Assembly (NCBI RefSeq): GCF_006345805.1
Contig: NW_021832639.1
Span: forward strand, 1-42,993
Source of the DNA: Octopus sinensis
Taxonomy: Eukaryota
Direction: 5' to 3'
DNA length: 42,993 nt
Part shown: positions 12,369 to 22,852 of the stretch, piece by piece
Layout of the letters: every line of letters starts with the position of its first letter
How positions within the stretch are numbered: the first letter of the stretch is position 1
Notes under the pieces: generated by a model
Told to the model about the DNA's origin: nothing
Databases searched by the model: none
What the model saw: only the letters and a program-made list of their open reading frames with translations
Translations under genes and position numbers: made by a program

Positions 12369-12400
<32 letters not shown>
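11525..12400. repeat. ~0.9-kb degenerate (AAT)n microsatellite
   Basis: Seen directly; abuts the 5'-truncated LINE RT fragment. Confidence 0.97.
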
Positions 12401-12663
12401 TGACTACAAAAAGCCGTTTGATAGCATCCCCCACACATGGATCCTCGAAACACTAGCCATTAACAAAGTAGCACCAACAATCATAAAATTCATAGAGCAC
12501 TCTATGAATAAATGGCAAACAGTCCTACACCTCCAAACAAAAGAGGGACTCATGAAAACCAAAGACATCCCCATTAGAAGAGGAATACTCCAGGGAGACA
12601 CGCTCTCTCCACTCCTTTTCTGCTTGGCACTGTCACCTCTATCTGATATGCTAAATAGAACTG
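12399..12663 (+). mobile_element. Non-LTR retrotransposon RT fragment (motifs A-B), 5' part of the LINE at 20585-22264
   Basis: Translation IDYKKPFDSIPH...RRGILQGDTLSPLLFCLALSPLSDMLNRT contains the RT motifs DxxKAFDS and QGDxLSP. Confidence 0.9.
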
Positions 12664-12833
12664 TATGGTCATGCGCTGTTTATCTTGATATAAGATCACT
12701 ATGTTGTGCATATATGGTTGCGACGCATATGTTTGGTATACCCTTATGAGACAGGGAGTCATGATGGATATATTGGGCTTCGCACATTTGTACCCCAGTG
12801 TCACTTCGATTGCATGCATTGCTCTCTCACTCA

Positions 12834-12917
<84 letters not shown>

Positions 12918-13333
12918 TGATAATAATAGCAATTCTTTTTCCTATAGGCATGGGGCCTGACATTTTGGGGGAGGGATGGACTCCAGTACGCAACTGGTAC
13001 TTAATTTATCGGCCCCGAAAGGATGAAAGGAAAGTATTCGACATCGGTGGAATTTGTACTCAGAACATAGCGGCAAACGAAATACAGCTAAGCATTTCGC
13101 CCGGCGTGCTTACGACTCTGCCAGCTCACCGCGTTAATAATAATAATAGTAATAAAAATAATGATGATGGTGATGATGATGATTACGTCGACGATAATAA
13201 TGATAATATTGTAAGGAAATTATTAGTTTTCGAACGAATTGAATCAAGTTTCCAGCACATTCCTTTTATGTTTTCATTTCATTACTTATTTATATAATTA
13301 TTTTCTCGTGTATTTTCTCTTTATCTTCTGCTT
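12661..13333 (+). repeat. Inverted duplication, copy 1 (partner 22262-22852)
   Basis: Near-identical reverse complement of 22262-22852. It contains a repeat end, (AAT)n, a SINE B copy and unique sequence. Confidence 0.95.
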
Positions 13334-13578
13334 CCTAAAAGAAAGAGAAGAAAAGGAAAAATGTCGAAAATAAATGGTAGAATTATGAAACTACATGGTG
13401 TAGCAGCATTTCTCTTTGAGAAATTGATTTGTTAGAGGGCGCTAGAGGGCCAAAAAACGGTGTACAGGATGTCTTCTGCGAAAACTTTTACAAAGTGAAG
13501 ACGCGGGTGGGGAAACAATCCGATTATCAAACAATTAAGCAAGTTTCTGGGTATGTACATGATTGACACAGCCATGTG

Positions 13579-13612
<34 letters not shown>

Positions 13613-14167
13613 TGTATGTATGTATGTATGTATGTATATGCATGTTTGTATGTGTATGTACGTTTGTGCGTATGCTAATTTGTGACTCTCTGCGGATTTG
13701 TGTGTGTGTATCTGTGTGTAAGTGTGTCTGTGTATATGTGTGAGTGTGTGTCTTTCTCTGTGTCTGTGTATGCATGTGTATGTTTGCATGGACGTGTATG
13801 TTTGTATGTATGTACGAGTGTATATATGTGTGTATGCATATACTATTTTTATGTATGTGTATATATATATATATATATACGTTTATATATTTGTGTTGCA
13901 GGATTCTTGATGTATATATATATGTTTGCATAAATATATATTTGTGTATATACATATATATATGTATATATGTATGTGTGTGTACGTGTATATGCGCATA
14001 TTCTTCATATAGGAATGCGACTACGTATGCGACGACTAACTTTATGTATTAATGACATGTAGGAGTAGATGCGTGTAGTTAATGAGGTGCGTTATATATA
14101 TGATATGATTATATATATATATATATATATATATTATATGAATATATATATGTATTATTATATATAG

Positions 14168-14210
<43 letters not shown>

Positions 14211-14540
14211 ATATATATATATATATGTATATATTATATATATGTATAATATATATATATGTATATATATATATTATATTTATGTATGTATATATATATA
14301 ATATATATTATGTATATATATAAATATATATATAAACATATATATATTATATATATATATATATCTATATGGTAAGCAATGTCTGTGTAAGCATGCGTAT
14401 ATACGTGTGTGTATATGCATCAGCCTTTGGCTTACGAACAGAATGTAGGTGTGGATGTATATAGGATATAAAGTGTGTTAGTGTATGTACGTCAGTATGT
14501 ATACATGTATAAGAAAATCTGTGTTTGTATATGTGTGCGC

Positions 14541-14573
<33 letters not shown>

Positions 14574-18910: not shown

Positions 18911-19719
18911 CAAGAAGAATCGACAGAGGCACCGTGATCAGGCACGGGCGTTGCCCTGTCAGTAATGGCTGCCAATTTTCTCTTAAATCATGTTCCTTCT
19001 TTTCCCTTTCCTTGTATTTGGGGGGAAAACAAGATTGCCTAATGTTACGTTCAACTCGACTCCTTAATCAAGTTGGCGCTCGAGATCAACAACAAACAAC
19101 AACTAAAATAACAACAAACATGATACAACACAAACTAGCGAGTAATTTCGTTCTACGCTGCTTTCAAACTGCGAGACATTGGTAGGCAACCCGTTTTACA
19201 AGACATTCTGGGGTCTTGAAAAGGACACGCAAAATAATTTAGACCTTAGAAATATCTCGGAAAATATCTTAATGGTTACAGCACATTAGAACACCATATT
19301 CTGGACCTCGTTATAAAATTATCGCACACGTGTCACAGAACATTCTCTTCACTTTTCAGATAAAGCAGAGAGAGAATGAGAGAGAGAGAGAGAGAGGGAG
19401 GGAGGGAGAGAGAGAGATAAAAAGAGATAGATAGATAGATGTCAGTATTGAAAACAGACGCATACACACCAGCACACAAACACACACGCACACACATATA
19501 ATGAACATTTTTCAGGAGCTTTCAGAGAATAATTAAGAACTAATAAACAAATATGCCTATATATTATACACTCATCATTAATGAAAGACAAAGATATATA
19601 TGTGTATATGTGTCGTCTACTATATGCCCAATGTGCCACACATTGGGACTGAACCCGAAACGATCTGGCTGGTAAGCAAATATGTGTGTGTGTTTGTATG
19701 TATATATGTACTCCCTGAC

Positions 19720-20119
19720 GTATATACATACGTACATACATACATACATTAATGCATACGTACGTTCATAATGCATACATATATATATAGATACTTACAT
19801 ACATACATACATGCATGCATATATACAAACATACATACTTACGTACATACATACATACTTACTTACATACATACATACATACATGCATACATCCATCCAT
19901 CCATACATTCATGAATACATACATACATACATACGTACATTCATACATTCATACATACATACATACATACTTATTTACTTACAACCAAACATACATGCAT
20001 GCATACATACATACATACATACACACATACATACATACATACATACATACATACATGCATACATACGTACATACATACATACACACATACATACATACAT
20101 ACATACATACATACATACA

Positions 20120-20150
<31 letters not shown>

Positions 20151-20160
20151 GTACATACAC
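19720..20160. repeat. (TACA)n microsatellite
   Basis: Seen directly. Confidence 0.95.
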
Positions 20161-20297
20161 ACGCACAGATATTTTCATACTTATGTGTATCAAATGGAAA
20201 GAAAATTTTGTTGGTTGGTCGATTCAGAATGAGTATAGTGCAAAATAAGAACATATATACATGTATGTATGTGTGTTCCGTGCACGTACAATACACA

Positions 20298-20335
<38 letters not shown>

Positions 20336-20584
20336 GATACATTCATAAATACGTACATACATACGTACATACATGCATACATAAAATTGTATATATATAT
20401 ATAAATACATATATATGTGTGTGTGTGCGGTATGTACAAATCTCTGTGTGTATACATGTACGCATATTCGTTCTCTATATATGTGTATGTATATATATGT
20501 ATAAATATGTATATTTTATGTATGTTGTATGATTATAATTTCTGCCCCCATTTTCATTTTTCTTTCATTGTATTTACTATTGTT

Positions 20585-22264
20585 ATTTTATTATTATTAT
20601 TATTATTCAGTAGTTTTATTTTTATAGCGTGCTTTCACTTCACTACCGAGCGCAGCTCTGTGTGCCTTGGGTATGTGCTGTGATTTGTTGTGATGCTCTG
20701 ATGGTTATTGTATGGAAAGTGTTCTGCGTAGGATGTGTGCAGTGCCTAGTAGTGCAATTTTCTGTATGTTATATGTGTTTGTAAGTCCTGGTGTTTTTGT
20801 TATGTATTTGTCTGAATATTTTCTTATCATGCCTAATGCACCTACTATGATAGGAATGTTTCTGTTTTAGGTTCCACATTCTAGTTACCTCTATTTCCAG
20901 GTCTTTGTATTTTGAGAGTTTCTCCATTTCTTTTAGAGACACGTTGTCATCTGCCGGTATTGATACATCAATTAGAAAGCATTTTTTTTCTTCATGATCT
21001 CTGACAACTATATCTGGTCTGTTGGCTTTAATTTCTCTATCTGTGTGTATCGGCATATCCCAGAGTATGGTTGCTTTCTCGTTTTCTGTGACCTTTTCTG
21101 GTGTGTGCCTATACCATCTTTTTTCTGTTGTTATTCCATAATGTTGGCATAGCTTCCAATGTATGTAGGTTCCAACTCTGTCATGTCTGTGAATATATTC
21201 CTTCTTAGCCAGGACTGGGCAGCTAGAGATAATATGATTTATTGTTTCTTGTCCATCTCCACATATTCTGCAGTTACTTGTAATATTTCTTTTCATTACA
21301 TGTTTTTGGTAATTTCTGGTGGGGAGGCTTTGGTCTTGTGCTGCATTAAAAATCCCTCTGTTTCTGCTTTGAATCCTGAGCTTCTCAACCATTGCTGGGA
21401 TTTTTCTTTGTCTATTTCTTTTGCGTTTAGTTTTAGTGCAGTATTTACCATGAAGGGGCTTTTCTTGCCATCGTTTTATCATGGCTCGTTGCTGTTCTAT
21501 TTTTAGTTGGATTTCATTTGTTTTATAGCTTTTGTTGTTTCTTCATCATCTTCTTCTTCTTTGTGTTTATTAGGTGGTATGATTTCTTGTTTGTATTTGT
21601 CAGCTTCCTTAAATACTGAGAACAGTTTTTTGTTTTGCTCGTGTTTTGCTGCTATCTGGATCAGTTTTCCTTCCTTCTGAAGTAGTATTTTTGCAGTCCT
21701 ATGGTGGTTATTTTATAGTAGTTTTCCAGCTGTATAAGGCCTCTACCACCTTCTATACGTTGTATATATAGTCTTTCTACGTCAGATTTTGGGTGATGCA
21801 TCCTAGATCCTGTCAGTATTTTTCTTGTTTTCCTATCTATTTTGGACAGTTCATTTCGTGTCCAGTTAAGGATATTGTAGCTGTAACTTATAACTGGGAC
21901 AGCTAAGTGTTGATACCTATTATCTTGTTTTTAGCATTGAGCTCTGTTTTTAGTATTGATCTAACTCGTCTATAATATTCTTTTTTATTTTCTCTTTCAT
22001 TTGTGTGTGTTGCGTCTTATCTAGTTCATGGATTCCTAAGTATTTGTAAGTTTGGCTTTGGTCTAATTCTTTTATTTCATTGGTTTTATCTAGTGTGATG
22101 TTGTTACTCTTAACTAGTTTTCCTCTTTTCATGGTTACTTTGGCGTATTTTTCTAATCCAAATTTCATATCTATTTCTTTAGTAAATCCATGAACTGTCT
22201 TTAATAGTGTTTCCAGCTGTTTGTCATTTGCAGCGTATAGTTTTAGGTCATCCATATATAAAAG
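20585..22264 (-). mobile_element. RLE-type non-LTR retrotransposon (R4/Dong-like), 3' half; frameshifted pseudo-ORF 22264->20705
   Basis: YMDDLKLY (RT motif C), KYLG (motif E), CRIC...H....C zinc knuckle, RHD, RPDIV...IDVSIP...EKLSKY (PD-(D/E)xK nuclease), C-terminus KIALLGTAHILRRTLSIQ*, short 3' UTR and (AAT)n tail. Confidence 0.93.
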
Positions 22265-22603
22265 CAGAAGATAAAGAGAAAATACACGAGAAAATAATTA
22301 TATAAATAAGTAATGAAATGAAAACATAAAAGGAATGTGCTGGAAACTTGATTCAATTCGTTCGAAAACTAATAATTTCCTTACAATATTATCATTATTA
22401 TCGTCGACGTAATCATCATCATCACCATCATCATTATTTTTATTACTATTATTATTATTAACGCGGTGAGCTGGCAGAGTCGAATACTTTCCTTTCATCC
22501 TTTCGGGGCCGATAAATTAAGTACCAGTTGCGTACTGGAGTCCATCCCTCCCCCAAAATGTCAGGCCCCATGCCTATAGGAAAAAGAATTGCTATTATTA
22601 TCA

Positions 22604-22680
<77 letters not shown>

Positions 22681-22852
22681 GAGTGAGAGAGCAATGCATG
22701 CAATCGAAGTGACACTGGGGTACAAATGTGCGAAGCCCAATATATCCATCATGACTCCCTGTCTCATAAGGGTATACCAAACATATGCGTCGCAACCATA
22801 TATGCACAACATAGTGATCTTATATCAAGATAAACAGCGCATGACCATACAG
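22262..22852 (-). repeat. Inverted duplication, copy 2 (partner 12661-13333), with a 74-bp internal deletion
   Basis: Reverse complement of copy 1; lacks the segment between the CGAC repeats at 13039 and 13113. Confidence 0.95.

What the first reader, a model, noticed from the sequence alone, without database searches (positions are those of the whole stretch)
12399..22852. Apparent ~9.6-kb inversion splitting a LINE RT, with an inverted duplication at the breakpoints
Seen: RT motifs A-B end at 12663 on + (…MLNRT), and the RT resumes at LLYMDD on the minus strand at 22264. Beside each break lies one copy of an inverted duplication (12661-13333 and 22262-22852). Copy 2 continues naturally into the host repeat on its right and copy 1 into unique DNA on its right, while the other end of each is fused to RT with a short apparent microhomology (ctg, ctt). 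Flipping 12664-22264 rebuilds one 5'-truncated LINE bounded by (AAT)n and missing only a short linker. Known: staggered-break inversions leave inverted duplications at breakpoints. Near identity of the copies suggests a recent, possibly polymorphic event (inference).
Basis: partly seen in the sequence, partly recalled or inferred. Interest (0 to 1): 0.7.

Follow-up and report, generated by a model that had tools for sequence, protein, structure and literature searches.

The report
Small inversion that split a retrotransposon
A 9.6-kilobase stretch of repeat-rich DNA lies flipped between the two halves of one young jumping gene, with a 670-base piece copied upside-down at one end; this is likely an ordinary, recent replication or repair slip of a known kind, and its new joints are not yet confirmed in raw reads.

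Summary
The sequence observation holds. The two RT pieces are halves of one Dong/R4-like LINE: they are collinear in 38 of 39 sibling copies, and 38 nt are lost at the break. The inverted copies (12661-13333, 22262-22852) have 0 substitutions in 591 nt. The three new joints carry 3, 3 and 4 nt of microhomology. Host DNA supports the flip independently: a variant unit of the left (AAT)n tract recurs only behind the LINE tail, and a host repeat runs on across copy 2's right end in 7 of 7 other copies. Only one breakpoint is duplicated; the other is deleted. A two-step microhomology template switch after insertion explains this best (0.45), ahead of a staggered break with end joining (0.28). Public contigs from 3 of 4 samples likely show the ancestral join and none shows the new one, so an assembly artefact (0.15) and polymorphism stay open. 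No host gene was found. The scan noted an older inverted duplication elsewhere in this genome, but not this event. Known kind, low interest.

The parts
11526..12398 (+). Degenerate (AAT)n tract, the upstream flank of the LINE's target site; carries the variant unit AATAGTAAATA six times
12399..12663 (+). 5' piece (265 nt) of a 5'-truncated RLE-type LINE, RT motifs A-B
   Evidence: 0-2% substitutions against sibling copies
12661..12663 (+). Joint J1: LINE fused to the start of duplicated segment D; exact microhomology CTG, 6 of 7 nt if extended into D
12661..13333 (+). D, copy 1 (673 nt): host-repeat fragment 12661-12832, (AAT)n about 12833-12928, a short interspersed repeat about 12932-13148 that keeps the 74 nt, and a single-locus end
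13334..20570 (.). Inverted host spacer U: microsatellites and repeat fragments, no Pfam-detectable gene; the join from D's end into U is likely the ancestral one
20571..20607 (-). (AAT)6 tail plus the degenerate downstream flank of the target tract, with the only minus-strand copy of the variant unit (20571-20581)
20608..22264 (-). 3' piece (1657 nt) of the same LINE: YMDD, thumb, CCHC knuckle, PD...D and K..KY restriction-like endonuclease motifs, 3' UTR; broken by frameshifts and stops
22262..22264 (-). Joint J2: end of D fused to the LINE at LLYMDD; exact microhomology CTT
22262..22852 (-). D, copy 2 (591 nt): no substitutions against copy 1; lacks 74 nt between 22482 and 22483 (CGAC microhomology)
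22853..23067 (-). Rest of the host repeat whose fragment opens D; marks copy 2's right end as the ancestral join
   Evidence: 7 of 7 other copies run across 22852

Best explanation
The two RT fragments are the halves of one young Dong/R4-like LINE, separated by a 9.6-kb inverted host segment and a 670-nt inverted duplication, and they were likely split after insertion by two microhomology-guided template switches in one round of replication or break repair. Inferred ancestral order: (AAT)n, LINE (about 1.96 kb, 5'-truncated), AAT tail, U reversed, D reversed, host repeat. Inferred steps: a nascent strand copied D, switched at CTT onto the LINE's other strand, copied the LINE 3' part, U and D again in reverse orientation, then switched at CTG(t/g)ATG back onto the LINE 38 nt beyond the first switch. 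One pass gives the inversion, the one-sided duplication and the 38-nt loss. The 74-nt loss 218 nt from J2 would be a third, local slip. Shown: the anatomy, the collinearity, the microhomologies and both ancestral host joins in the assembly. Inferred: the mechanism, the order of events and that the joints exist in the animal.
For: The halves are collinear in 38 of 39 siblings, with a 38-40 nt spacer. The variant unit occurs 6 times in the left tract and once behind the LINE tail, against 0 of 112 AAT tracts in 54 other loci and 0 of 7 other tracts in the window. The host repeat runs across 22852 in 7 of 7 copies. In 3 of 4 runs (3 samples, 3 studies) one unbranched contig covers D's end and runs 268-269 nt further on non-LINE sequence; that distance lands at 13602, inside the (TGTA)n that follows in U (letters not shown, so U is inferred). 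Microhomologies of 3, 3 and 4 nt have a joint chance near 1e-4 for blunt random joins. The LINE has 5 private substitutions in 1920 nt while the D copies have 0 in 591, which suggests the duplication is younger than the insertion (P about 0.05-0.07). 0 of 39 siblings show an opposite-strand element piece. PMC7584159 (passages) describes template switching and backward copying as a source of inverted duplications at inversion ends.
Against: No contig bridging J2 was listed in any of 4 runs, including the run with an exact match to D's end, and an unbranched contig argues that J2 is not in those graphs. J1 and the 74-nt deletion joint were not tested directly against reads. The same end product follows from a staggered break with microhomology end joining. 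The age test is weak: only 39 siblings were compared out of 1529 candidate places, and polishing could have made the two D copies alike. The assembly holds no second haplotype of the locus (6 probes).
Confidence: 0.45

Rival explanations
1. Same real, post-insertion inversion, but made by breakage and rejoining: one nearly blunt break inside the LINE (38 nt trimmed) and one break staggered by about 670 nt around D (offset nicks on one chromatid, or offset breaks on two sisters), joined by microhomology-mediated end joining with fill-in.
For: It gives the same anatomy as the best explanation. PMC7584159 (passages) states that staggered breaks at one or both breakpoints give inverted duplications, and describes copies of 534-540 nt. 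Short microhomologies also fit end joining.
Against: It needs two independent breaks, one with a long stagger, plus a separate slip for the 74-nt loss. The same paper notes the unwinding problem of the single-chromatid version.
Confidence: 0.28
2. Assembly or library artefact: the animal has the ancestral order, and the contig records a chimeric molecule.
For: The window is a whole 43-kb unplaced contig. J2 was not seen in 4 of 4 runs, and D's end runs on unbranched in 3 of them. The LINE piece carries 5 private single-base indels, a sign of uncorrected long-read error.
Against: Overlap assemblers misjoin inside long shared repeats, not at 3-nt matches (established knowledge, recalled). A chimera would need two reciprocal switches landing 38 nt apart in the LINE. 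The contig is the only copy of the locus in the assembly. Such contigs drop locus-specific bridges beside high-copy repeats: 22566-22587, present in both D forms, has zero depth in 2 of the 3 runs that hold D's end.
Confidence: 0.15
3. The rearrangement arose during retrotransposition. One RNA was primed at its tail by the nicked (AAT)n and a second time, internally at CUG, by a host 3' end from a second break 8 kb away (twin priming). The two cDNA ends were then joined to the opposite flanks, which inverted the host fragment.
For: Both ends of the D-U fragment point outward into antisense LINE sequence, as two primers on one RNA would. The imperfect homology at J1 (6 of 7 nt) lies on the side expected if the host end was the primer (chance about 8% over four junction sides, my estimate). 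PMC11702581 (passages) reports a twin-primed L1 intermediate whose two cDNAs ended at distant translocation joints.
Against: 0 of 39 siblings show an inverted 5' piece (20 have the truncation point inside the fetched locus). The duplication looks younger than the insertion (P 0.05-0.07). The 5' joint is an ordinary (AAT)n truncation joint like 16 of 20 siblings. D's ends are not at (AAT)n target sites. The 38-nt gap is longer than the 1-10 bp reported for L1 twin priming in PMC11702581. The J1 asymmetry also fits the template-switch model run right to left.
Confidence: 0.1
4. Two unrelated insertions of the same family, plus a separate inverted duplication.
For: The family is abundant (1529 candidate places), so neighbours are common.
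Against: The pieces end 38 nt apart on the element's map; the 5' piece has no 3' end; both are fused exactly to the ends of D; and the flanking tracts share a unit seen nowhere else.
Confidence: 0.02

Closest known systems
Inversions with inverted duplications at a breakpoint: staggered-break (isochromatid/chromatid) and repair (MMBIR, template-switch) models; Drosophila subobscura O7 and its 2-kb microinversion (PMC7584159, passages read)
   Same: A duplication of several hundred nt present only in the inverted state; one breakpoint duplicated and the other with a small deletion; short microhomologies.
   Different: 9.6 kb instead of megabases; one breakpoint lies inside a young LINE, which acts as an internal ruler; no genes detected; no confirmed uninverted haplotype.
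Dong/R4 non-LTR retrotransposons (PMC7998251, passages; recently active in Octopus vulgaris with 1129 insertions, PMC13282606, passages; Dong also in O. bimaculoides, PMC9115989, passages)
   Same: RT followed by a CCHC knuckle and a restriction-like endonuclease; insertion into (TAA)n; frequent 5' truncation; copies under 2% diverged.
   Different: Clade placement was not tested with a tree or a named Dong sequence; the N-terminal SANT/Myb-like domain lies outside this copy and was not tested.
L1-mediated rearrangements with twin-primed cDNAs at distant joints (PMC11702581, passages read)
   Same: Two pieces of one element's sequence sit at two distant joints in opposite orientations, with microhomology.
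   Different: Described for APE-type L1 in cultured human cells; the gap here is 38 nt, no sibling shows a 5' inversion, and the duplication looks younger than the insertion.

Membership tests
Inversion with breakpoint inverted duplication | Inner segment reversed relative to a reconstructable ancestral order | tested here: met
   LINE collinearity in 38 of 39 siblings, tract-specific unit, host repeat continuity in 7 of 7 copies
Inversion with breakpoint inverted duplication | Duplicated non-repetitive sequence in inverted orientation at the ends | tested here: met
   13200-13333 occurs only twice in the assembly, both times in this contig; alignment
Inversion with breakpoint inverted duplication | Uninverted single-copy allele seen in another haplotype or species | tested here: inconclusive
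   Unbranched contigs from D's end in 3 of 4 runs fit the ancestral join, but that join exists in both states
Inversion with breakpoint inverted duplication | Novel joints supported by independent molecules | tested here: inconclusive
   J2 not listed in 4 of 4 contig sets, which drop such bridges; J1 not tested
Staggered-break origin (as against template switching) | Breakage mode that can be told from the product | not testable with these tools
   The models give the same product (PMC7584159, passages)
Dong/R4 LINE | RT of the R2-like group | tested here: met
   A sibling's RT region matches only R2-type proteins in the PDB: 5 sequences, E 5e-28 to 3e-20 (the two chains titled 'RT-like protein' are recalled to be Bombyx R2)
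Dong/R4 LINE | C-terminal CCHC knuckle and restriction-like endonuclease | tested here: met
   Motifs found in the window's 3' piece (motif definitions recalled); zf-RVT just below cut-off; weak match to an R2 C-terminus
Dong/R4 LINE | Insertion into (TAA)n microsatellites | tested here: met
   (AAT)n follows the 3' end in 8 of 10 siblings (2 not found by the string search) and precedes 16 of 20 visible 5' ends
Dong/R4 LINE | Phylogenetic placement in the R4 clade | not tested
   The 120 listed relatives are single RT proteins of up to about 1200-1450 aa; the few named ones are from coral, fish, shrimp and beetle, none named Dong; no tree was built
Dong/R4 LINE | N-terminal SANT/Myb-like domain without zinc fingers | not tested
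   Absent from this truncated copy
Twin-primed insertion | 5' inversions occur among the family's ordinary insertions | tested here: not met
   0 of 39 loci have an opposite-strand piece; the loci were picked for full matches, which biases against finding them

The most novel reading that the evidence does not exclude
A germline Dong/R4 (restriction-like endonuclease) LINE was twin-primed across two breaks 8 kb apart, so that one RNA templated both ends of a host fragment and inverted it during insertion: an L1-cancer-type rearrangement made by an early-branching LINE in an invertebrate.
Probability: 0.1. Interest if true: 0.6.

Novelty: new member of a known kind. Interest (0 to 1): 0.22.

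Why it matters
If the best explanation holds, it matters little: one small, recent inversion in repeat-rich DNA with no detected gene. Its practical value is as a clean example of a method. Young Dong-like copies, under 2% diverged and with over a thousand candidate places here, act as internal rulers that expose inversion breakpoints and microhomologies in a single assembly, so a genome-wide screen could count and classify such events. If the twin-priming reading were true, it would show that R2/R4-type LINEs can rearrange host DNA while inserting. One search (twin priming + non-LTR retrotransposon + restriction-like endonuclease) returned one paper, and the passage I saw there mentions twin priming only for L1. 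That is too thin to claim the process is unreported.

Tried and rejected
Second haplotype in the assembly: six probes from both flanks, U and both contig ends found no allelic copy; the best other matches were 81-95% repeat copies or none. Different subfamilies for the two halves: rejected. Depth as copy number: D's end contig has depth 71.8 in X1 against 42.6-46.9 for two other single contigs, and 33.1 in X18 against 40.2-55.5; only X1 has any cover at 22466-22477, next to the 74-nt deletion joint. These hints would fit X1 carrying copy 2, but contig depth is not a copy number and the covering record was not listed, so I do not count them. X2 had no cover of D's end (about 80% of the run read), which proves nothing. 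Host genes: 43 of the 47 complex open frames of 90 aa or more were scanned (the 4 left out lie in the LINE itself); hits were a weak DDE_3/HTH and a below-cut-off Baculo_8kDa match; short exons would be missed. Naming the element through homologs gave no Dong label. A paper search for octopus structural variants returned only software and unrelated papers. A sequence look-up in earlier findings gave nothing. The general repeat finder was swamped by microsatellites.
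Full report
Setting. The window is the whole of an unplaced 42,993-base contig, G000:C9110, in a 2.72-Gb assembly. It has no Ns, 36.5% GC and about 20% simple repeats. I take it to be an octopus genome by inference from the repeat landscape and from earlier scan notes; I did not test this. No host gene was detected among 43 scanned open frames.

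The observation. The + strand frame from 12399 carries RT motifs A and B and leaves the element at 12663. The - strand resumes at LLYMDD at 22264 and runs to a 3' end at 20608, followed by (AAT)6. The duplicated segment D aligns over 591 nt with no substitution. There is an 8-nt length difference in its (AAT)n and a 74-nt stretch missing from copy 2. Seven other copies of the short repeat in the window cross that point, so copy 2 lost the stretch. The single-locus end of D occurs only twice in the assembly, both times here.

One element. I compared 39 sibling loci: 10 refetched from the 11 other loci and 29. In 38 of 39 the two pieces are collinear, with 38 nt between them in 34 and 39-40 nt in 4; the last copy is truncated before the 5' piece. 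Some loci may be duplicates of each other. Both halves differ from siblings by about 0.4-2% substitutions. The element has an RT closest to R2 proteins in the PDB, a CCHC knuckle and restriction-like endonuclease motifs, and it sits in (AAT)n at both ends in most siblings. That matches the description of Dong/R4 in PMC7998251 (passages). Dong-R4 is the largest recently active LINE group listed for Octopus vulgaris (PMC13282606, passages). The clade was not tested with a tree, so I call it Dong/R4-like.

Host evidence for the flip. First, the variant unit AATAGTAAATA occurs six times in the left tract and once, on the - strand, right behind the LINE tail. It occurs in 0 of 112 AAT tracts from 54 other loci and 0 of 7 other tracts in the window. 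The two flanks were therefore very likely one microsatellite before insertion. Second, the host repeat that opens D runs on across 22852 in 7 of 7 other copies. Third, in runs X1, X18 and X4 (three samples, three studies) one unbranched contig covers 22262-22384 and continues 268-269 nt on sequence that is not the LINE. In copy-1 coordinates this ends at 13602, inside the (TGTA)n that follows in U. The letters were not shown, so the match to U is inferred.

Are the joints real? Not shown. No piece bridging J2 was listed in 4 of 4 runs, and the unbranched contigs imply J2 is absent from three of those graphs. These are simplified contigs, which show presence and not absence; a neighbouring stretch shared by both D forms also has no cover in 2 of those 3 runs. 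J1 and the 74-nt joint were not tested directly. Six probes found no second haplotype in the assembly. An assembler misjoin would sit in long shared sequence, not 3 nt (recalled), and a chimera would need two reciprocal switches. I put the artefact at 0.15.

Mechanism. The joints carry exact microhomologies of 3, 3 and 4 nt, with a joint chance near 1e-4 for blunt random joins. One breakpoint is duplicated and the other deleted. Two template switches in one pass give the inversion, the duplication and the 38-nt loss together, and the 74-nt loss 218 nt from J2 fits an unstable fork. The homology at J1 extends to 6 of 7 nt on the D side only, a weak hint that D's end primed on the LINE. A staggered break with end joining gives the same product; PMC7584159 (passages) discusses both routes and says the pattern does not separate the staggering models. 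I favour template switching modestly (0.45 against 0.28). Together, a real inversion after insertion has about 0.73.

Timing. The LINE copy has 5 private substitutions in 1920 nt and its nearest sibling differs by 0.55% in the 3' piece. If D were as old as the insertion, about 3 substitutions would be expected between its copies; 0 were seen (P 0.05-0.07). This is weak, because unsampled source elements inflate the private count and polishing can make copies alike. Polymorphism is plausible but not shown.

The bolder reading. Both ends of the D-U fragment point outward into antisense LINE sequence, as two primers on one RNA would. PMC11702581 (passages) reports twin-primed L1 cDNAs at distant joints, with 1-10 bp gaps or duplications between the cDNAs. 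Against this: no inverted piece in 0 of 39 siblings, an ordinary 5' joint, a 38-nt gap and the age test. I give it 0.10. PMC6895275 (passages) mentions twin priming for L1 and describes template jumps for R2.

Papers seen as passages only: PMC7584159, PMC11702581, PMC13282606, PMC9115989, PMC7998251, PMC6895275, PMC3774820 (a Dong 5' junction preceded by TAA repeats). No supplements were opened; those of PMC13282606 may hold the consensus that would name this family.

Verdict. A correct and careful observation of a small inversion with a one-sided inverted duplication. It is a new example of a known kind, in DNA with no detected gene, and it still lacks read support. Interest 0.22.

Noticed in passing
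window 4539-5486 and 33526-33651: About five tandem units of roughly 184 nt at 95-97% identity, with a related piece at 33526; locus L003 holds the same unit in head-to-head orientation.
   Followed up: no
window 23050-25033: Long dispersed repeat, about 80% identical to many copies, with open-frame remnants that have no Pfam match; possibly a decayed DNA transposon.
   Followed up: partly
window 27191-28011: Two open-frame fragments resemble Penelope-like RT sequence (resemblance recalled; no Pfam hit at 1e-3).
   Followed up: partly
window 31891-32044, 33764-33917 and 34080-34373: A 154-nt inverted repeat at 95% identity beside a weak DDE_3/HTH match; looks like a mariner-type remnant.
   Followed up: partly
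L031-L034, L039: Sibling LINE copies often sit head-to-tail with fragments of the same or an older related element, as expected if each (AAT)n tail is a new target.
   Followed up: no
L049, 5' end of the element: The nearest sibling's 5' end abuts (AGA)n instead of (AAT)n.
   Followed up: no
window 39973-40628: A 340-nt imperfect palindrome (82%) overlapping about three tandem 130-nt units.
   Followed up: no
window 41760-42993: The contig ends in a high-copy repeat, 91-95% identical to many copies, which may be why it is unplaced.
   Followed up: partly
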